Shown: in pieces, positions 1-5,175 of the stretch | How the letters are laid out: every line of letters begins with the position of its first letter | Position numbering within the stretch: position 1 is the first letter of the stretch | IMG/VR virus record: IMGVR_UViG_2537562091_000002 | Reading direction: 5' to 3' (one strand) | DNA length: 5,175 nt | From: a virus | Taxonomy: Duplodnaviria > Heunggongvirae > Uroviricota > Caudoviricetes | Position numbers and translations under genes: made by a program | The notes under the pieces: generated by a model | Database searches by the model: none | Seen by the model: the letters and a program-made list of their open reading frames with translations, nothing else | What the model was told of the DNA's origin: nothing

Positions 1-195
1 CCTGTCATACGCGTAAAACAGCCAGCGCTGGCGCGATTTAGCCCCGACATAGCCCCACTGTTCGTCCATTTCCGCGCAGACGATGACGTCACTGCCCGGC
101 TGTATGCGCGAGGTTACCGACTGCGGCCTGAGTTTTTTAAGTGACGTAAAATCGTGTTGAGGCCAACGCCCATAATGCGGGCTGTTGCCCGGCAT
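1..195 (-). CDS. insB: IS1 InsB, 5' part only (65 codons; 3' end lies beyond the window)
   Basis: Minus-strand ATG at 193-195, then [65 protein letters not shown] to position 1; overlaps insA in another frame as in canonical IS1. Confidence 0.8.
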
Positions 196-389
196 CCAAC
201 GCCATTCATGGCCATATCAATGATTTTCTGGTGCGTACCGGGTTGAGAAGCGGTGTAAGTGAACTGCAGTTGCCATGTTTTACGGCAGTGAGAGCAGAGA
301 TAGCGCTGATGTCCGGCAGTGCTTTTGCCGTTACGCACCACCCCGTCAGTAGCTGAACAGGAGGGACAGCTGATAGAAACAGAAGCCAC
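114..389 (-). CDS. insA: IS1 InsA (transposition regulator / N-terminal part of the InsAB' transposase), GTG start
   Basis: 91-aa translation [40 protein letters not shown]...LKNSGRSR matches recalled IS1 InsA throughout; stop TAA at 114-116. Confidence 0.95.
132..138 (-). other. IS1 A6C slippery run (programmed -1 frameshift site producing InsAB')
   Basis: Minus strand reads TTAAAAAACTC here, at the insA/insB overlap. The role of this motif in IS1 is established knowledge. Confidence 0.7.
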
Positions 390-421
390 TGGAGCACCTC
401 AAAAACACCATCATACACTAA

Positions 422-444
422 ATCAGTAAGTTGGCAGCATCACC
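422..444. repeat. IS1 terminal inverted repeat (insA-proximal end)
   Basis: ATCAGTAAGTTGGCAGCATCACC is the exact reverse complement of the recalled 23-bp IS1 IR. Confidence 0.85.
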
Positions 445-517
445 CAACACCCGATACTTTTTCCTGGCTTCCAGCAACGGGGTTTCTTCCTCCGTTGCAT
501 ATACAGCTCACCTTTTT

Positions 518-811
518 TCACCCACGATTAACCAACAGCCAGATCAGCAGACACGCCACCACCGGCACAGCAAAATCCATCAGGCTTGCCACATCCCAAA
601 CACGCGGATCAAAACCGCCCCACCACGGCATGTTAATCCGCTTGCCATGCCCGAACATTTCAATCCAGCGATATTCTGCCTGGGTGTGTTCACGCGCAAT
701 GAAGAACGTACAACCAGCTATCGCCCCATAAGCCCAGTTTCCGGTAAAAAGACCAACCAGTGTCTGCGCAGCCACAGCACAAAGCGCATGAAGAAAAGGT
801 GTTATATCCAT
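518..811 (-). CDS. Small predicted membrane protein (97 aa), function unknown; last gene of the post-fibre cassette
   Basis: ORF with ATG at 809-811 preceded by AGGAGGAG immediately after the upstream stop. Hydrophobic stretches FLHALCAVAAQTLVGLF, WAYGAIAGCTFFIA and FAVPVVACLLIWLLV flank a charged loop containing WWGGFDPRVWD. No family recognised by eye. Confidence 0.6.
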   Translation of the reverse strand: MDITPFLHALCAVAAQTLVGLFTGNWAYGAIAGCTFFIAREHTQAEYRWIEMFGHGKRINMPWWGGFDPRVWDVASLMDFAVPVVACLLIWLLVNRG

Positions 812-821
812 TACTCCTCCT

Positions 822-1526
822 TTATCTAATATCGCTTCGGGAAGTTAATAACAACTTTAATTCTGACTCAAGTTCATCAACTCTTTCAGTCAGTTTCTGG
901 ATATGGTGAATCAGTGGAACAACCAGACGTTCGTACATTACACCTTCGGCAACAAGGCCATTGCTGGAAATAGCTTCAGGAGCATCATCTTCGTTAGCTG
1001 GTCGCCAGTGTACAAACTGAGGAGCAATTTCTCCTACTTCCTCGGCAATCAATCCGTAGAATCCCCAGTCACGCCTGTCATTTTCGCATTGCGACCTGTA
1101 CCACACAGGGCGCATCCTGAAAATGAGATCGGCGTGCTCTGAATCTATTGTCTCTACTGAATGTTTATAGCGGATAGACGATGTTGACCGCAGCACAGAC
1201 GAAATTGCAGGGTCAGGATTAAGATAAAGGTTTGCCGCCGCTGTAGTCGTGGCCAAATTCCATAAATAAAACGCTTCACGACCTGTCAGTGGATAAAAAT
1301 CTCCGCCATAACGACCACTTTCCAGATCGTTCACTTCCACTTTGTTTTTCAGCTTATTATCAACTTCAGTTTTTGTGTATCTGGAGCTGATATCCTGCTT
1401 TGCACTGGTCATCTCAGTCTGAAGCGTTGATACTTTTCTGCTAATTGATGAAATATCTTCCTTAGCTTTACTGACATCCCCCTTTAGCTTGGTGATATCT
1501 CCTGGAATTACTGTCGATGTAGCCAT
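822..1526 (-). CDS. Standalone coiled-coil protein (234 aa) with a C-terminal peptidase-S74-type intramolecular chaperone domain (tail-fibre/tailspike auto-chaperone type)
   Basis: ATG at 1524-1526, with GAGG overlapping the upstream stop 9 nt before it. Residues about 10-65 show 3-4 spaced hydrophobics (heptad pattern). Residues about 116-234 (SSIRYKHSVETID...RPVWYR...GLIAEEVGEIAPQFV...YERLVVPLIHHIQKL...ELESELKLL) fit the recalled S74 IMC consensus (SDrrlK...lrPvsYrY...GliAQEv...). Confidence 0.8.
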   Translation of the reverse strand: MATSTVIPGDITKLKGDVSKAKEDISSISRKVSTLQTEMTSAKQDISSRYTKTEVDNKLKNKVEVNDLESGRYGGDFYPLTGREAFYLWNLATTTAAANLYLNPDPAISSVLRSTSSIRYKHSVETIDSEHADLIFRMRPVWYRSQCENDRRDWGFYGLIAEEVGEIAPQFVHWRPANEDDAPEAISSNGLVAEGVMYERLVVPLIHHIQKLTERVDELESELKLLLTSRSDIR

Positions 1527-1535
1527 TTTCCTGCC

Positions 1536-1817
1536 TCACATCCAGCCACGAAGTTGATGCTCAACAACAACCGCGTATTTATCGAATATTGACGATTTTT
1601 TTGCATCATTAATGATGCGCACGTTTACAAAATATCCGTCTTCCTTAACACATACCGGCTCGCCATCTTCAGTAAGTTCTCCGGTTTCTTTGTACACGTT
1701 ACCTATCACGTCAATAAGAATATCATCCTGCATCGACTCGTCATCATAATAGCCAGCACTCTTCATAAAGGCCGAAAAGTCGGCCTTGTCTGTGAATTTG
1801 ATAATTAAATCTCGCAT
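1536..1817 (-). CDS. Small acidic hypothetical protein (93 aa), translationally coupled to the fibre gene
   Basis: ATG at 1815-1817 overlaps the fibre stop (minus strand reads TAATG); GGGAGAG lies upstream. Asp/Glu-rich product (MRDLIIKFTDKADFSAFMKSAGYYDDESMQDD...). No similarity to Tfa recognised. Confidence 0.6.
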   Translation of the reverse strand: MRDLIIKFTDKADFSAFMKSAGYYDDESMQDDILIDVIGNVYKETGELTEDGEPVCVKEDGYFVNVRIINDAKKSSIFDKYAVVVEHQLRGWM

Positions 1818-3784
1818 TATATTATCTCTCCCATTTGCGCATCGGTTAATTCTTTATGCCATATTCTAAAATTCCTGATATAACCAAATAAATGACGTAA
1901 GCCGGCTGTAGTCTGGCCTCCAATCCTTATACCTGTAGCACCACTAACACTCTTCCACGTTGTTGATGCTGGTGTTGATAAAACCCCATTGCAGCCAGCC
2001 TGAAACTTGCCATCGCTTTTTATTCTATATACAGCGATAATCTTTCTTGGGTAATTTCCAGGTGGAAATGATATTGGATTACCAAATTGAACATATGGAG
2101 TTCCTACACTACCTGCTGTATTTCTGAATGCAAAAACAAAAGCGTCGTCTTTTGTTTTAAATCCTGTTATATCATAAATTCTAGGCGCGGAATTTGGTGC
2201 CATAGACCAATTTTTATTCACTTCAACCATGCAGGTTAAAGGTTTGCTGGCCATGTTATTTTTACAAGGCAATGTAACAATATCGCTTGCTCGCGTTGAT
2301 GCAACTGTATCGGAAATGATAAAAGATGATGCGCATGAGCCGCCTTCAAATTGTGGTGTCGTAACATCCAAATATTCCCCGCCCAAATAAGTTCCAGGTG
2401 AAACAGGTGGAGCAATTTGGATCTGAGAGCCAACCATATTATCAATAGCTTCAGATTGATATGTAACCTCGAAATAAATCCATCCATTAGATTCTTTCTC
2501 CGCTCGGGCGGTTATTCTTGCAGCCCCTCCTCCCGTTTTCCTAATGGACATATCTGTTATATTAAGATATGCATCTGCCAGATAAAAATATGCGGACCCG
2601 TCATATCTTTCAAATCTTATACGACATTGTATATTAGCACTATCGCTTTTTACACGACATGATGTTGTAACATACTTTTCAGTTCCAGTAACATCGACAC
2701 CTCTTCCTCCTGAAACCGCAGCGATATTCATTGTCGTATTTGTCCCAATTTTTTCGTCCTTTATTTGAAACCGCCCATAAGTAAAGCCAAACTCATCAAC
2801 ACCACTTTCTGTTATAGTTACACTTGTTGTAGCTCCCCACTTAGATGGCGTAAGTGAATTAAGATGATAGTTGGTTCTTTGTCCTTCAATCAGCAAACCT
2901 TCTCGTTCAAATCGCGGTTCGTCAACTTCAGCAACGGTTAATACTCCTGATTTATTAATGTATGTTGCACCTGATGCGCGTTTGAAGCTAACAACCTTAT
3001 CGGATGGCATTTTAATAACATCATCACCTACAGTTATTTGCTTATAACCAGGCGAAAAGCCAGCAAGCATATCCAGTGAATCGTTAAACGGTATCCACAC
3101 ATCGGGAAGCGGCTGCAAAACTTGTTTATACGGCTCCGCAGCCTGGCTTGCATACTCTCTGGCTGCGTCTTCACTTGCTTTTGCAGCCGTCTGGCTTGCA
3201 GCGGATGCTTTCGCCGAGTTAGCCGCCGCAGTCTCGCTCGCCTTTGCGTTGGTTTCACTGGTTTTTGCAGCTTTTTGACTGTTGGCTGATGCAGTGGCAG
3301 AAGAAGCCGCCGCACTTGCAGAACCAGCTGCGGCACTCTCGCTTTGGGCCGCTGCATCCTGACTGTTTTTCGCCGCAGTTTCGCTGGCTTTGGCATTCGT
3401 TTCGCTGGTCTTCGCTGCCGTCTGGCTGGACTTTGCGTTAGTTTCGCTCGTCTTCGCTGCTTTCTGGCTGTTAGCTGCAGCAGTTGCTGATCCAGCTGCT
3501 GAAGTCGCAGAACCGGCTGCCGCACTCTCGCTTTCGGCTGCTGCAGCCTGACTGCTTTTCGCCGCAGTTTCACTGGTTTTGGCATTCGTTTCGCTTGTTT
3601 TCGCTGCCGCCTGGCTGGACTTTGCGTTGGTTTCGCTCGTCTTTGCTGCTGTCTCGCTATTTTTCGCGTTGTTTTCTGATTTTTTAGCTGCTGTCGCGGA
3701 GTTTGCCGATGCAGTCTGCGAGGCCGCTGCCGCCTGTGCGCTGTTAACCTGAATCGGTTCGTGCTGCCTTTGCGGTTTCCTGAT
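1817..3784 (-). CDS. Side tail fibre protein (Stf family), N-terminally truncated remnant. Open frame 3784-1817 with no canonical start; the only start candidate is TTG at 3116-3118. C-terminal LamG/concanavalin-A-like lectin-type domain.
   Basis: Manual translation of the frame continuous with the 1817..3118 ORF stays open up to TGA at 3785-3787. Residues upstream of 3118 read ...AAKTSETNAKASETAAKNSQDAAAQSESAAAGSA..., typical of lambda Stf-type shaft repeats. The C-terminus ...IGGQTTAGLRHLFGYIRNFRIWHKELTDAQMGEII fits the LamG signature (IGG...G.IDEVRIYNRALSAEEI). Confidence 0.8.
   Translation of the reverse strand: MRKPQRQHEPIQVNSAQAAAASQTASANSATAAKKSENNAKNSETAAKTSETNAKSSQAAAKTSETNAKTSETAAKSSQAAAAESESAAAGSATSAAGSATAAANSQKAAKTSETNAKSSQTAAKTSETNAKASETAAKNSQDAAAQSESAAAGSASAAASSATASANSQKAAKTSETNAKASETAAANSAKASAASQTAAKASEDAAREYASQAAEPYKQVLQPLPDVWIPFNDSLDMLAGFSPGYKQITVGDDVIKMPSDKVVSFKRASGATYINKSGVLTVAEVDEPRFEREGLLIEGQRTNYHLNSLTPSKWGATTSVTITESGVDEFGFTYGRFQIKDEKIGTNTTMNIAAVSGGRGVDVTGTEKYVTTSCRVKSDSANIQCRIRFERYDGSAYFYLADAYLNITDMSIRKTGGGAARITARAEKESNGWIYFEVTYQSEAIDNMVGSQIQIAPPVSPGTYLGGEYLDVTTPQFEGGSCASSFIISDTVASTRASDIVTLPCKNNMASKPLTCMVEVNKNWSMAPNSAPRIYDITGFKTKDDAFVFAFRNTAGSVGTPYVQFGNPISFPPGNYPRKIIAVYRIKSDGKFQAGCNGVLSTPASTTWKSVSGATGIRIGGQTTAGLRHLFGYIRNFRIWHKELTDAQMGEII
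3240..3720. repeat. In-frame tandem direct repeat, period 189 bp (63 codons), about 2.5 copies, encoding the fibre shaft low-complexity repeats
   Basis: Near-identical blocks start at 3321 and 3510 (GAACCAGCTGCGGCACTCTCGCTTTGGGCC... vs GAACCGGCTGCCGCACTCTCGCTTTCGGCT...). The sub-motif CTTTGCGTT.GTTTC.CT.GT recurs near 3242, 3431 and 3621. Confidence 0.85.
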
Positions 3785-3791
3785 TCAGCAT
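3744..3791 (-). pseudogene. 15-codon stub (MLNQETAKAARTDSG*), interpreted as the remnant 5' end of the gene after nu1 (terminase large subunit by position)
   Basis: ATG overlaps the nu1 stop as TAATG and is preceded by AGGAGGAG. The frame stops after 15 codons exactly where the Stf-type repeat sequence begins. Too short to identify by sequence; the call rests on position. Confidence 0.35.
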
Positions 3792-4285
3792 TACTCCTCC
3801 TGCTGTAATTCCTCCTCATCATCCGCACCTGCTTCAGTCACCCGCAGGGCTATCTGATCGCGCAGATCATCAATAATGGACTGAACACGGCTCACAGCGG
3901 CAGGCTGCAGACCGCAGTCACGTTCAAGAATATCCGGTAATGTCTCCAGCACCTGCACGACCGCTTTTGCCCAGATGGCAAACTCCCGTCTGACATCACT
4001 GGCCGGAATGAGTTGTGCCGTTTCCTGTTCGAACTTAAGACGCTCACGTTCAGACTGATACCAGGCTTTGCGCTCATGCGCGTCCATTTCGCCTTCTGCA
4101 ACCGGCGGTGGTAATGCCAGAAATGCCGACACAATATCAACCACCCGATAAAGCTTGAGGTTGCTTTCATGCCCCCCTGCAACGGGTAGATTTTGCAGCC
4201 TTGCCGCAGCAGTCTGGCGATGTACACCTGACAATGCCGCCAGTTGACTGATATTCAGCGTCAGATTTTTTAACTCTCGATCCAT
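3791..4285 (-). CDS. Terminase small subunit, lambda Nu1 / Noh family (164 aa)
   Basis: ATG at 4283-4285 with GGAG 7 nt upstream. N-terminal HTH-like segment LNISQLAALSGVHRQTAAARL parallels lambda Nu1 KKQLADIFGASIRTIQNWQ. Sits about 175 bp downstream of a cosN-like site, as in lambda. Confidence 0.85.
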   Translation of the reverse strand: MDRELKNLTLNISQLAALSGVHRQTAAARLQNLPVAGGHESNLKLYRVVDIVSAFLALPPPVAEGEMDAHERKAWYQSERERLKFEQETAQLIPASDVRREFAIWAKAVVQVLETLPDILERDCGLQPAAVSRVQSIIDDLRDQIALRVTEAGADDEEELQQEE

Positions 4286-4500
4286 ACCCGCTCCAGAATG
4301 TTTTAAACATGCATCTTGCGAACAACTTTAGGCAAACGGTGTTAGTGATGAACAAAAAACAATCAGAATCGACACCATAAAAATAAAACAACTGTAATAT
4401 CAATCAATTACAGTAGTGGTGATGACGAATAAAATTTCAAAAACTAGCCTTTTTCCGCGACGCTCCCGCCCCGTGGCAGGGCCCCCCCACTGGGAGGACC
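4286..4500 (-). other. cos region: cosN-like 12-mer (minus strand GGGCGGGAGCGT, plus 4460-4471), cosQ-like sequence on the high-coordinate side, AT-rich cosB-like spacer towards nu1
   Basis: Minus strand reads ...GGGTCCTCCCAGTGGGGGGGCCCTGCCACG GGGCGGGAGCGT CGCGGAAAAAGG... Recalled lambda is ...GGGTCCTTTCCGGTGATCCGACAGGTTACG GGGCGGCGACCT CGCGGGTTTTCGC... The 12-mer matches 8/12, both nick-flanking triplets/pentamers match, and the spacing to GGGTCCT is the same. Confidence 0.55.
4391..4414. repeat. Perfect 8-bp inverted repeat with 8-bp spacer (ACTGTAAT-ATCAATCA-ATTACAGT) inside the cosB-like spacer
   Basis: Read directly from the sequence; function unknown. Confidence 0.5.
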
Positions 4501-4718
4501 CGACAGCCTGACAACCGTGACGAGCATCTGTAACAGAGCTTTACATAATGGCATGGGGATAATTCAGAAGGACATCACAGCATGCCCACACAAATTAGTG
4601 TGAGTGTCCTGTTTCTTACTACGCGCAGGACTGACGAGCATGAGGGGAAAATACGAGAAACGAAATGCCTTATCTTCAGAAATGCAGCCGGCATCCGAAC
4701 TGGACGATATTGTAAATT

Positions 4719-4757
4719 TGATCTTACCCAGCAATAGTGGACACGCGGCTAAGTGAG
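4719..4757. repeat. IS3 left terminal inverted repeat (approximate extent)
   Basis: Element terminus begins with TG at 4719; the roughly 39-bp IR length is recalled, not measured. Confidence 0.6.
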
Positions 4758-4783
4758 TAAACTCTCAGTCAGAGGTGACTCAC

Positions 4784-5083
4784 ATGACAAAAACAGTATC
4801 AACCAGTAAAAAACCCCGTAAACAGCATTCGCCTGAATTTCGCAGTGAAGCCCTGAAGCTTGCTGAACGCATCGGTGTTACTGCCGCAGCCCGTGAACTC
4901 AGCCTGTATGAATCACAGCTCTACAACTGGCGCAGTAAACAGCAAAATCAGCAGACGTCTTCTGAACGTGAACTGGAGATGTCTACCGAGATTGCACGTC
5001 TCAAACGCCAGCTGGCAGAACGGGATGAAGAGCTGGCTATCCTCCAAAAGGCCGCGACATACTTCGCGAAGCGCCTGAAATGA
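4784..5083 (+). CDS. insE: IS3 OrfA (InsE). The ORF track starts at GTG 4775; the canonical ATG is at 4784 with AGAGG upstream.
   Basis: Translation MTKTVSTSKKPRKQHSPEFRSEALKLAERIGVTAAARELSLYESQLYNWRSKQQNQ...ATYFAKRLK matches recalled InsE. The CCAAAAG slippery motif lies at about 5043-5049. Confidence 0.9.
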   Translation: MTKTVSTSKKPRKQHSPEFRSEALKLAERIGVTAAARELSLYESQLYNWRSKQQNQQTSSERELEMSTEIARLKRQLAERDEELAILQKAATYFAKRLK

Positions 5084-5175
5084 AGTATGTCTTTATTGAA
5101 AACATCAGGCTGAGTTCAGCATCAAAGCAATGTGCCGCGTGCTCCGGGTGGCCCGCAGCGGCTGGTATACGTGGT
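5080..5175 (+). CDS. insF: IS3 OrfB (InsF), 5' part only, with an apparent 1-nt deletion in an A-run (possibly inactivating, possibly a homopolymer sequencing error)
   Basis: ATG at 5080 encodes MKYVFIE in frame 1. The conserved continuation HQAEFSIKAMCRVLRVARSGWYTW is encoded from 5103 in a different frame. The window has GAAAAC where the recalled sequence has GAAAAAC. Confidence 0.7.
   Translation, partial: MKYVFIENIRLSSASKQCAACSGWPAAAGIRG

What the first reader, a model, noticed from the sequence alone, without database searches (positions are those of the whole stretch)
3119..3784. 222-codon open frame with no ATG/GTG/TTG: can the fibre be expressed at all?
Manual translation shows the Stf frame is open from 3784 to the TTG at 3116-3118, but this stretch contains only Ala/Ser/Thr/Lys/Glu/Asn/Gln/Asp/Gly-type codons and no canonical initiator. 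The fibre is therefore either a non-expressed remnant, initiated at TTG 3118 (giving only the receptor-binding module, 433 aa), or reached by recoding from the upstream stub (a +1 shift would be required). The intact 655-codon frame suggests the truncation is recent or that the gene is under selection.
Basis: seen in the sequence. Interest (0 to 1): 0.45.

Follow-up and report, generated by a model that had tools for sequence, protein, structure and literature searches.

The report
Beheaded prophage tail-fibre gene remnant
The start-less open frame is what remains of a phage side-tail-fibre gene whose first 150 codons were deleted in a decayed Qin-type prophage; this is ordinary prophage decay, not a recoding puzzle.

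Summary
On the minus strand the frame 3784-1817 is open for 655 codons, and the first ATG/GTG/TTG is TTG 3118.

The explanation is mundane. The window is a Qin-type cryptic prophage remnant: IS3, terS, the first 15 codons of terL, a truncated stf, three small genes and IS1. A deletion with 2 bp of microhomology (TA, 3746-3745) joined terL codon 15 to stf codon 151. It removed the PF08400 tail-attachment domain, the start codon and the ribosome-binding site.

The intact gene is 792 aa in E. coli B REL606 and is 99.97% identical over 3,302 nt. It already has a 248-codon stretch with no start codon, because its Ala/Ser/Thr/Lys/Glu shaft contains no Met or Leu and its coding strand is only about 10% T. 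The deletion endpoint simply fell inside that stretch.

I found no slippery codon for a +1 shift, no usable Shine-Dalgarno sequence before TTG 3118, GTG 3100 or ATG 3070, and no Rfam element. The best reading is a recent, untranslated pseudogene.

One side observation is unexplained. The same TA in stf is the deletion breakpoint in five other independent junctions with different left partners (BL21 IS3, Rz, KilA-N, tail gene L, a GREB1-related gene). That looks like a deletion hot spot.

The parts
4719..5175 (+). End of an IS3 copy (orfA 4775-5083 on the + strand). The IS3 terminus ...GGGTAAGATCA ends at 4719 when read on the minus strand.
   Evidence: 99.6% identity to the IS3 in REL606 (L001 6001-6463). 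PGAP annotates it as an IS3 family transposase.
4286..4718 (-). Non-coding DNA upstream of terS, directly abutting IS3. It contains one sigma-70-like match at 4403-4374.
   Evidence: The same IS3-flank-terS arrangement occurs in EC931 and three other E. coli genomes. Promoter scan.
3791..4285 (-). Terminase small subunit gene (164 aa, DUF1441), intact.
   Evidence: Pfam PF07278, E = 2.7e-41. phrog_141 terminase small subunit, E = 7e-74.
3744..3791 (-). Stub made of the first 15 codons of the large terminase gene (MLNQETAKAARTDSG) plus a TAA created by the deletion junction. A strong SD (GGAGGAG) lies upstream.
   Evidence: 100% identity to the terS/terL junction of many E. coli prophages down to window position 3745. 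SD duplex -10.3 kcal/mol.
3745..3746 (-). Deletion junction. The dinucleotide TA is shared by terL (GGTTA|TATCC) and stf (GCAGCTA|ACAGC).
   Evidence: Three-way alignment. BLAST breakpoints against REL606, 214-4 and EC931.
3746..3784 (-). Thirteen codons (IRKPQRQHEPIQV) at the head of the open frame. They are terL DNA read in the +1 frame, not fibre sequence.
   Evidence: Translation. Homology to terL extends down to position 3745.
3119..3745 (-). stf codons 151-359: the Ala/Ser/Thr/Lys/Glu-rich shaft, with no ATG, GTG or TTG (209 codons).
   Evidence: 99.97% identical to REL606 stf. Codon census. The start-free run in the intact gene covers codons 112-359.
3224..3658 (-). Tandem array inside the shaft: 189-nt (63-aa) units, 2.3 copies, 83% matches.
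   Evidence: Tandem Repeats Finder. An independent assembly with the same junction (L004) has 378 nt (2 x 189) less here.
1817..3118 (-). C-terminal receptor-binding module of Stf (433 codons from TTG 3118). It carries a GTA/head-spike-fibre domain and a weak ConA/LamG-like match.
   Evidence: NCBIfam NF048003, E = 4e-14. phrog_1419 profile positions 359-793. 75% identity to the C-terminus of the lateral tail fibre of the T5-like phage IrisVonRoten.
1536..1817 (-). 93-aa gene that always follows this fibre type. Its function is unknown.
   Evidence: phrog_1361, E = 1e-44. It holds the same position in phages Tritos and IrisVonRoten.
822..1526 (-). 234-aa tail-fibre-domain protein with an S74 intramolecular chaperone domain.
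   Evidence: Pfam PF13884, E = 3.9e-6. phrog_3299 and phrog_454.
518..811 (-). 97-aa predicted membrane protein that completes the cassette.
   Evidence: phrog_1443, E = 3e-58. It is conserved next to the Pin recombinase gene in Tritos and REL606.
1..448 (-). End of an IS1 copy (InsA ORF 114-389). It cuts the locus off from the tfa remnant and pinQ that follow in REL606.
   Evidence: 99.3% identity to the IS1 in L002. REL606 continues with tfa'-pinQ-ydfK-ydfJ.

Best explanation
The 222-codon start-less stretch is the 5' part of a beheaded side-tail-fibre gene (stf) in a Qin-type cryptic prophage.

**How it arose.** A single illegitimate deletion crossed over in a 2-bp TA. It joined codon 15 of the large terminase gene to codon 151 of stf. 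Relative to an EC931-like ancestor it removed the rest of the terL remnant, the J remnant, lom and the first 150 codons of stf. Those 150 codons hold the PF08400 tail-attachment domain, the ATG and the ribosome-binding site.

**Why there is no start codon.** The endpoint fell inside the low-complexity shaft. The shaft encodes no Met or Leu and uses only GTT for Val, so no canonical start remains until TTG 3118.

**Why the frame is still open.** The event is young, and T-poor DNA rarely makes stop codons.

**Likely expression (inferred).** Ribosomes load at the strong terL SD, make a 15-residue peptide and stop at the junction-made TAA. The fibre frame is not translated beyond noise. It could not function as a fibre anyway, because the tail and the attachment domain are gone.

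**Shown:** the junction, the ancestry, the missing domain, and the lack of starts, SD sequences or slippery sites. **Inferred:** the lack of translation.
For: - **Frame and start census:**
- **The stub is terL.** There is 100% identity to terS-terL of many prophages down to window 3745. The three-way alignment shows terL GGTTA|TATCC and stf GCAGCTA|ACAGC, and a junction-made TAA.
- **An intact allele exists.** REL606 carries a continuous 792/794-aa ORF that is 99.97% identical to window 445-3746. PF08400 lies at residues 3-132 and is absent from the window copy. The phrog_1419 profile (793 positions) matches REL606 end to end, but matches the 433-aa receptor-binding ORF of the window (from TTG 3118) only over positions 359-793.
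- **Ancestral layout.** EC931 carries IS3-terS-terL'-'J-lom-stf. The window is collinear with it apart from a 3,693-bp gap.
- **The start-free run is intrinsic.** It covers codons 112-359 of the intact gene, and the coding strand is 9.8% T.
- **No expression route found.** SD duplex energies are -10.3 kcal/mol for the stub ATG, but -5.8 (poor spacing), +1.2 and +0.3 for TTG 3118, GTG 3100 and ATG 3070. There is no +1 re-pairing codon and no Rfam hit.
- **Not an assembly error.** The same junction is present in the independent assembly GCA_004570285.1.
- **Precedent.** PGAP already calls the equally truncated BL21 copy a pseudogene 'missing N-terminus'.
- **Functional phages keep the full-length gene** directly after J (Tritos, 790 aa).
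Against: - No expression data exist for this locus, so 'not translated' is an inference from sequence.
- Near-cognate codons ATC 3784 (about 10 nt downstream of the strong terL SD) and ATT 3754 could give initiation at roughly 0.02-3% of AUG levels (bioRxiv 10.1101/063800).
- No terminator-like site separates terS from the fibre frame, so the region may be transcribed.
- Fragments of tail-fibre genes in another cryptic prophage (e14 StfE2) have been reported to be made and to block phage T2 adsorption (PMC12529663). A host-level role for a remnant is therefore not absurd.
Confidence: 0.9

Rival explanations
1. Internal initiation at TTG 3118, GTG 3100 or ATG 3070 produces a stand-alone receptor-binding module of 417-433 aa. 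This module has a host-level function, for example masking a surface receptor against incoming phages.
For: - The receptor-binding module is a self-contained unit: phrog_5939 and the T5-like IrisVonRoten fibre share only this part, from about residue 213 of the 655-residue frame.
- PGAP annotates a 417-aa protein from the equivalent ATG in REL606.
- There is a precedent for a cryptic-prophage fibre fragment blocking T2 adsorption (PMC12529663).
Against: - None of the three codons has a usable SD.
- In every functional phage examined the module is the C-terminus of a protein of about 790 aa, never a separate gene.
- The REL606 call is an annotation artefact, because the full 794-codon ORF is continuous there.
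- There is no evidence of transcription or of selection.
Confidence: 0.06
2. Programmed +1 frameshifting from the 15-codon terL stub carries ribosomes into the fibre frame. The product would be a truncated fibre of about 650 aa.
For: The stub has a strong SD and an ATG. The fibre frame is +1 relative to it, and the two frames overlap over 3784-3744.
Against: - No codon in the overlap allows the P-site tRNA to re-pair in the +1 frame, and there is no CUU-U, CCC-N or similar motif.
- The overlap exists only because of an accidental deletion with 2 bp of microhomology.
- The junction is absent from 5,426 complete E. coli genomes, so it has had no time to evolve a recoding signal.
- There is no Rfam frameshift element.
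Confidence: 0.01
3. Leaky initiation at the near-cognate ATC 3784 or ATT 3754, using the terL SD, gives trace amounts of a nearly full-length headless fibre.
For: ATC 3784 lies about 10 nt downstream of GGAGGAG. AUC and AUU initiate at 0.02-3% of AUG in E. coli reporters.
Against: - The ATG at 3791 sits at the optimal spacing from the same SD and should outcompete ATC.
- Elongating ribosomes on the stub would occlude both codons.
- Any product lacks the tail-attachment domain, and there is no tail to attach to.
Confidence: 0.03

Closest known systems
Full-length stf of the Qin-type prophage of E. coli B REL606 (L001 8493-10871; phrog_1419 family; lambda Stf homologue)
   Same: It is 99.97% identical in DNA over the retained 642 codons and the three downstream genes. 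It has the same shaft repeats and the same receptor-binding module.
   Different: REL606 keeps codons 1-150 (the PF08400 domain), the ATG and the upstream lom and J remnant. The window copy has lost all of these.
BL21(DE3)/BLR(DE3) Qin stf pseudogene (PGAP: 'phage head spike fiber domain-containing protein, incomplete, missing N-terminus')
   Same: The same gene is truncated at the same TA (stf codon 150/151), leaving the same 642 codons and no start. It is already annotated as a pseudogene.
   Different: The left partner is an IS3 copy lacking its last 31 nt, not terL. The event is confined to the BL21 laboratory lineage, 32 genomes.
E. coli K-12 Qin nohA-stfQ junction
   Same: It is the same prophage locus (ydfJ-ydfK-pinQ side), and a terminase small-subunit gene directly abuts a 5'-truncated stf after loss of all head and tail genes.
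   Different: The terminase type differs (Nu1-like NohA rather than DUF1441). The fibre C-terminus is lambda-like. The breakpoint is different, and stfQ is annotated with a GTG start.
Functional fibre cassettes of phage Tritos (lambdoid) and phage IrisVonRoten (T5-like)
   Same: They share the gene order: fibre, 93-aa gene, S74-chaperone fibre gene, 97-aa gene, then a Pin recombinase in Tritos. Identity is 65% over the shaft and receptor-binding module (Tritos) or 75% over the receptor-binding module (IrisVonRoten).
   Different: In these phages the fibre gene is complete (790-796 aa) with its own start, and it sits in a complete virion gene set.
e14 StfE/StfP fragments recombined by PinQ/PinE into StfE2 (PMC12529663)
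   Same: It is a tail-fibre remnant in a cryptic prophage next to a Pin-family recombinase, and it has a proposed host-level role.
   Different: StfE2 arises by inversion of a defined P segment flanked by 16-bp inverted repeats and has a start codon. No such repeats or Pin-type sites were found here, and IS1 separates the window from pinQ.

Membership tests
Lambdoid side tail fibre (Stf; phrog_1419, PF08400 + shaft + receptor-binding module) | N-terminal 'prophage tail fibre N-terminal' domain (PF08400) that anchors the fibre to the tail | tested here: not met
   PF08400 matches residues 3-132 of the REL606 protein (E = 1e-66). It is absent from the 655-codon window frame.
Lambdoid side tail fibre (Stf; phrog_1419, PF08400 + shaft + receptor-binding module) | Homologous shaft and C-terminal receptor-binding module | tested here: met
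   99.97% DNA identity to REL606 stf codons 151-792. phrog_1419 E = 1.6e-183 and NF048003 E = 4e-14 for the C-terminal 433 aa.
Lambdoid side tail fibre (Stf; phrog_1419, PF08400 + shaft + receptor-binding module) | Own start codon and ribosome-binding site, located after J/lom in a tail gene cluster | tested here: not met
   There is no ATG, GTG or TTG before 3118. J, lom and all tail genes are absent, and terS/terL' lies directly upstream.
5'-truncated pseudogene created by deletion | A full-length orthologue exists, and the copy lacks its 5' end at a definable junction with unrelated DNA | tested here: met
   The junction was mapped to TA 3746-3745 between terL codon 15 and stf codon 151. 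The same junction is present in an independent assembly.
5'-truncated pseudogene created by deletion | No translation of the remnant | not testable with these tools
   Only sequence proxies are available: no canonical start, no SD and no slippery site. No expression data are available.
Programmed +1 ribosomal frameshift (prfB-type or similar) | A shift-prone P-site codon that can re-pair in +1, next to a slow codon or stop, with an upstream SD-like stimulator | tested here: not met
   None of the 15 stub codons keeps its first two bases on a +1 shift. The only stop, TAA, follows GGT, which cannot re-pair as GTT.
Programmed +1 ribosomal frameshift (prfB-type or similar) | Conservation of the overlap and shift site among homologues | tested here: not met
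   The overlap exists only at this deletion scar. It occurs in 0 of 5,426 complete E. coli genomes and in no GTDB species representative.
Qin-type cryptic prophage (ydfJ locus) | Collinearity with the Qin remnant of E. coli B and relatives (IS3, ..., stf cassette, pinQ, ydfK, ydfJ) | tested here: met
   Window 445-3746 and 4714-5175 match REL606 Qin. Window 3745-5175 matches EC931 Qin. The pinQ side is cut off by IS1 within the window.
Pin/Gin/Cin-type invertible tail-fibre segment | 26-bp crossover sites in inverted orientation, one inside the fibre gene | tested here: not met
   No gix/pix-like motif and no significant inverted copy of the breakpoint region were found in REL606 or Tritos.

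The most novel reading that the evidence does not exclude
The TA at stf codon 150/151 is a genuine, sequence-determined hot spot for deletions that behead this fibre gene. Six independent junctions, spread over several diverged stf alleles and different prophages, share it. Their left partners are terL (this window), IS3 (BL21), Rz, KilA-N, tail gene L and a GREB1-related gene.

Most partner sites resemble TA-NCNGCG, which is the retained stf side. Two of the events are in frame and create expressible headless fibres: L'::'stf (649 aa with L's ATG) and KilA-N::'stf.

A site-specific nick or break, or a recombinase acting on a primary site in stf and on secondary sites elsewhere, would be a new route of prophage domestication. 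It would repeatedly strip the virion genes while keeping the receptor-binding cassette.
Probability: 0.2. Interest if true: 0.55.

Novelty: already known. Interest (0 to 1): 0.14.

Why it matters
For the finding as posed, it matters little. It is a textbook product of prophage decay, and annotation pipelines already flag the equivalent BL21 copy as a pseudogene.

There are three practical lessons:

- A long open frame in T-poor, Ala-rich fibre shafts is not evidence of selection or recoding.
- Such shafts confuse gene callers. PGAP splits the intact REL606 gene into fragments and calls spurious out-of-frame and antisense ORFs.
- Beheaded fibre cassettes remain available as recombination donors for incoming lambdoid phages. 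Lambda acquires DNA from the Qin stf/tfa region at about 2e-6 (PMC3945230).

The recurrent breakpoint seen in passing is the only part that could lead somewhere new.

Tried and rejected
- **Missed start codon.** None exists.
- **+1 frameshift site.** No re-pairing codon and no Rfam element.
It is not informative. There is one real substitution against REL606 (Ile to Met at codon 528 of the frame). The few other differences lie at repeat-copy boundaries.
- **Source genome via the junction 32-mer.** No hit among GTDB species representatives or in complete E. coli genomes. The junction was found only in draft assembly GCA_004570285.1.
- **Explanations tested for the recurrent breakpoint:**
  - Pin/gix-type crossover site or dyad symmetry: none.
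  - Inverted repeats linking the site to the pin-proximal end: none convincing.
  - ssDNA secondary structure: z-scores -0.8 to +1.0.
  - IS3 involvement in the other events: none.
  - Plain microhomology ranking: the site is among the best for the BL21 IS3 event (8 of 12) but unremarkable for the terL event (4 of 12).
- **Explanations for the breakpoint considered from memory only.** Comparison with dif/Xer, integron, IS-target and restriction-site consensus sequences gave no match. No tool was run for these.
- **Literature on BL21 versus REL606 Qin differences.** Nothing useful was found in the library.
Full report
**1. The observation.** Reading the minus strand, a TGA lies at 3787-3785. 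The frame is then open from 3784 to the TAA at 1819-1817, which is 655 codons. The first ATG, GTG or TTG is TTG 3118, and it gives the 433-aa ORF that the mechanical ORF list reports. The 222 codons from 3784 to 3119 are dominated by GCN, AGC/AGT, AAA/AAG, GAA/GAG, ACN, AAC and CAG. The only near-cognate start codons are ATC 3784 and ATT 3754. A 15-codon ORF (ATG 3791 to TAA 3744) overlaps the head of the frame, and the fibre frame is +1 relative to it.

**2. What the locus is.** The window matches the Qin-type cryptic prophage of E. coli B and its relatives. Window 445-3746 is 99.97% identical (one mismatch in 3,302 nt) to REL606 L001 8942-12243. Window 4714-5175 matches the neighbouring IS3, and window 1-448 is IS1. 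Window 3745-4505 is 98% identical to the terS (DUF1441) and terL start of common E. coli prophages. In a 401-nt junction query the terS/terL match is 100% down to position 3745 and then stops. A three-way alignment shows terL ...GATTCAGGTTA|TATCC..., stf ...CATGCAGCTA|ACAGCGCAC... and the window ...GATTCAGGTTAACAGCGCAC.... The join is therefore an illegitimate crossover in a shared TA (3746-3745). The stub is the first 15 codons of the large terminase gene. Its TAA stop is made by the junction, because terL codon 16 is TAT. The first 13 codons of the '655-codon fibre frame' (IRKPQRQHEPIQV) are terL DNA read out of frame.

**3. What was lost.** In REL606 the fibre gene is one continuous ORF of 794 codons from GTG, or 792 from the ATG MAAVKISG.... 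Pfam places the 'prophage tail fibre N-terminal' domain PF08400 at residues 3-132 (E = 1e-66). The window frame has no such match. The PHROG family phrog_1419 (793 positions) matches REL606 end to end, and matches the window's C-terminal 433 aa over positions 359-793. The breakpoint is the third base of codon 150. Codons 1-150, the start codon and the ribosome-binding site are gone, and 642 codons remain.

**4. Ancestry of the deletion.** E. coli EC931 and three other genomes carry the same IS3 insertion and the same flank, followed by terS, a terL remnant, a J remnant, lom and stf. The window is collinear with EC931 on both sides of a 3,693-bp gap, L005 10016-13708. The truncation is thus a further deletion inside a prophage that had already lost its head and tail genes. 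The same junction is present in an independent NCBI draft assembly (GCA_004570285.1, contig SPSC01000086.1), so it is not an assembly error. It is absent from 5,426 complete E. coli genomes and from GTDB species representatives.

**5. Why there is no start codon.** The intact REL606 gene has no ATG, GTG or TTG between codons 111 and 360, a run of 248 codons. The shaft is a low-complexity Ala/Ser/Thr/Lys/Glu/Asn/Gln sequence built partly from 189-nt tandem units. Its coding strand is 9.8% T over 3119-3784. All start codons and all stop codons contain T. The reading frame therefore has neither, and a second frame is also stop-free, which produces the spurious 264-aa ORF at 3034-3828. Mononucleotide shuffles give P(no start) of about 0.01. 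Once the amino-acid composition is taken as given, nothing remains to explain. The deletion endpoint simply fell inside the start-free run.

**6. Can it be expressed?**
- The stub ATG has a strong SD (GGAGGAG, duplex -10.3 kcal/mol).
- TTG 3118 has only a weak GGAG at a poor spacing (-5.8 kcal/mol). GTG 3100 and ATG 3070 have none (+1.2 and +0.3).
- No stub codon can re-pair in the +1 frame, and Rfam finds nothing in the window.
- One sigma-70-like site lies upstream of terS and no terminator-like site follows it, so transcription is possible.
- AUC and AUU can initiate at 0.02-3% of AUG in reporters (bioRxiv 10.1101/063800). Trace product from ATC 3784 or ATT 3754 cannot be excluded, but the ATG at 3791 shares the same SD at a better spacing.
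- Any product would lack the tail-attachment domain, and there is no tail.

I conclude, by inference, that the frame is an untranslated pseudogene.

**7. Recent or selected?** Against REL606 there is a single substitution, ATA (Ile) to ATG (Met) at codon 528 of the frame. The few differences from EC931 and L004 lie in or next to repeat copies and are all synonymous repeat variants. That shows the event is recent, and it gives no power for dN/dS.

**8. Comparison with known cases.**
- PGAP already annotates the equally truncated copy in BL21/BLR(DE3) as a pseudogene 'missing N-terminus'.
- K-12 Qin shows the same kind of scar, with nohA overlapping a 5'-truncated stfQ.
- Functional phages keep the whole cassette. 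Tritos has J, stf (790 aa), a 93-aa gene, an S74-chaperone fibre gene, a 97-aa gene and PinR. The T5-like phage IrisVonRoten carries the receptor-binding module (75% identity) at the C-terminus of a 796-aa lateral fibre, followed by the same small gene.
- Such remnants can still matter as donors. Lambda recombines with the Qin stf/tfa region at about 2e-6 (PMC3945230). An e14 fibre chimera has been reported to block T2 adsorption (PMC12529663).

**9. An unexplained side observation.** The stf breakpoint of the window is also the breakpoint in five other junctions, each with a different left partner:

| Source | Left partner | Note |
|---|---|---|
| BL21 lineage (32 genomes) | IS3 lacking its last 31 nt | |
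| E. coli 2452 | Rz codon 6 | apparent 8-nt microhomology TAACAGCG, inferred from the junction (the intact Rz of this lineage was not recovered) |
| Gut metagenome contig L105 | KilA-N gene | in frame |
| IMG/VR contig L245 | tail gene L codon 3 | in frame; gives a 649-aa ORF beginning MQD-NSAQ |
| IMG/VR contig L316 | GREB1-related gene | |

In the 241 loci anchored on the 25-mer just right of the site, three truncations lie exactly at the site (one is BL21-type), against four scattered over the other 449 nt upstream. In 80 further loci anchored 35 nt downstream, the only truncation was again at the site.

Aligned at the TA, most partner sites resemble the retained stf side:

| Site | Sequence from the TA |
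|---|---|
| stf | TA ACAGCG |
| Rz (inferred from the junction) | TA ACAGCG |
| IS3 | TA GCCGCG |
| GREB1-related gene | TA CCCGCG |
| KilA-N | TA TCCGCC |
| Tail gene L | TA TCCGGC (recalled from the phage lambda L sequence, not read from any locus here) |
| terL | TA TATCCT |

The stf, IS3, KilA-N, GREB1-related and terL rows were read from intact copies.

I found no Pin-type site, no dyad symmetry, no inverted partner, no unusual ssDNA fold and no IS3 near the other events. The pattern fits a fixed DNA end or nascent 3' end at this TA that is rejoined through short imperfect homology. What fixes the end is unknown.

**10. Verdict.** This is a known kind of object, a deletion-truncated prophage pseudogene, and is of low interest. 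The recurrent breakpoint is the one lead worth following up.

Noticed in passing
window 3745-3746 (= REL606 L001 8942-8943); L007 2925-2926; L009 about 5000; L105, L245 9934, L316 4848 (in the stf reading orientation): The TA at stf codon 150/151 is the breakpoint of six independent deletions with different left partners: terL, IS3, Rz, KilA-N, tail gene L and a GREB1-related gene. Most partner sites resemble TA-NCNGCG. In anchored samples it is strongly over-represented compared with the neighbouring 450 nt. The mechanism is unknown.
   Followed up: partly
L245 9927-11876 (IMG/VR UViG contig) and L105 (gut metagenome contig): Two of those junctions are in frame. One joins tail gene L codons 1-3 to stf codon 151, giving a 649-aa ORF with L's ATG and SD. 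The other is a KilA-N::stf fusion (KQYG|NSAQAAAAS). Headless fibres that can be translated therefore do exist elsewhere.
   Followed up: partly
REL606 L001 8487-10871 (equivalent to window 1817-3746 plus the lost 5' end): The intact 794-codon stf of REL606 is annotated by PGAP as fragments. These are a 'missing C-terminus' pseudogene, an out-of-frame 'phage tail protein' (WP_071819603.1, the Arg/Gln-rich frame), two antisense hypothetical proteins, and a 417-aa protein starting at the ATG equivalent to window 3070. These are annotation artefacts of the T-poor repeat region.
   Followed up: yes
window 3034-3828 (- strand) and 3122-3752 (+ strand ORFs): There is a 264-aa GTG ORF in a second frame of the shaft, and several 50-67-aa ORFs on the opposite strand. 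All are by-products of the skewed composition (few T on one strand, few A on the other) and are not genes.
   Followed up: yes
window 3224-3658: A 189-nt (63-aa) tandem repeat is present in 2.3 copies in the fibre shaft. The independent assembly with the same junction (L004) is exactly 378 nt (two units) shorter here. This is either a real in-frame length polymorphism or a short-read assembly collapse.
   Followed up: partly
window 1-448 and 4719-5175: The remnant is bracketed by IS1 and IS3. IS1 sits just after the 97-aa gene and separates the cassette from the tfa remnant and pinQ found in REL606. Relatives carry IS1 at other positions in the same cassette: TUM10008 in the 93-aa gene, and EC931 inside stf at window-equivalent 2563.
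   Followed up: partly
L010 (E. coli Z0117EC0005, DLP12/appY-ompT locus) 4822-6695, and K-12 L006 4886-6368: Other prophage loci show independent joins of a terminase small-subunit gene to a truncated stf at different breakpoints (L001-equivalent 8880 in Z0117EC0005; nohA/stfQ in K-12). Loss of everything between the terminase genes and the fibre is a recurrent outcome of lambdoid prophage decay.
   Followed up: partly
window 518-3118; L254 (phage Tritos) 1458-5827; L253 (phage IrisVonRoten) 1445-5844: The four-gene cassette (fibre receptor-binding module, 93-aa gene, S74-chaperone fibre gene, 97-aa membrane protein) is conserved in order in a lambdoid phage next to a Pin recombinase. Its first three genes are also conserved in a T5-like virulent phage, an example of fibre-module exchange across phage families.
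   Followed up: partly
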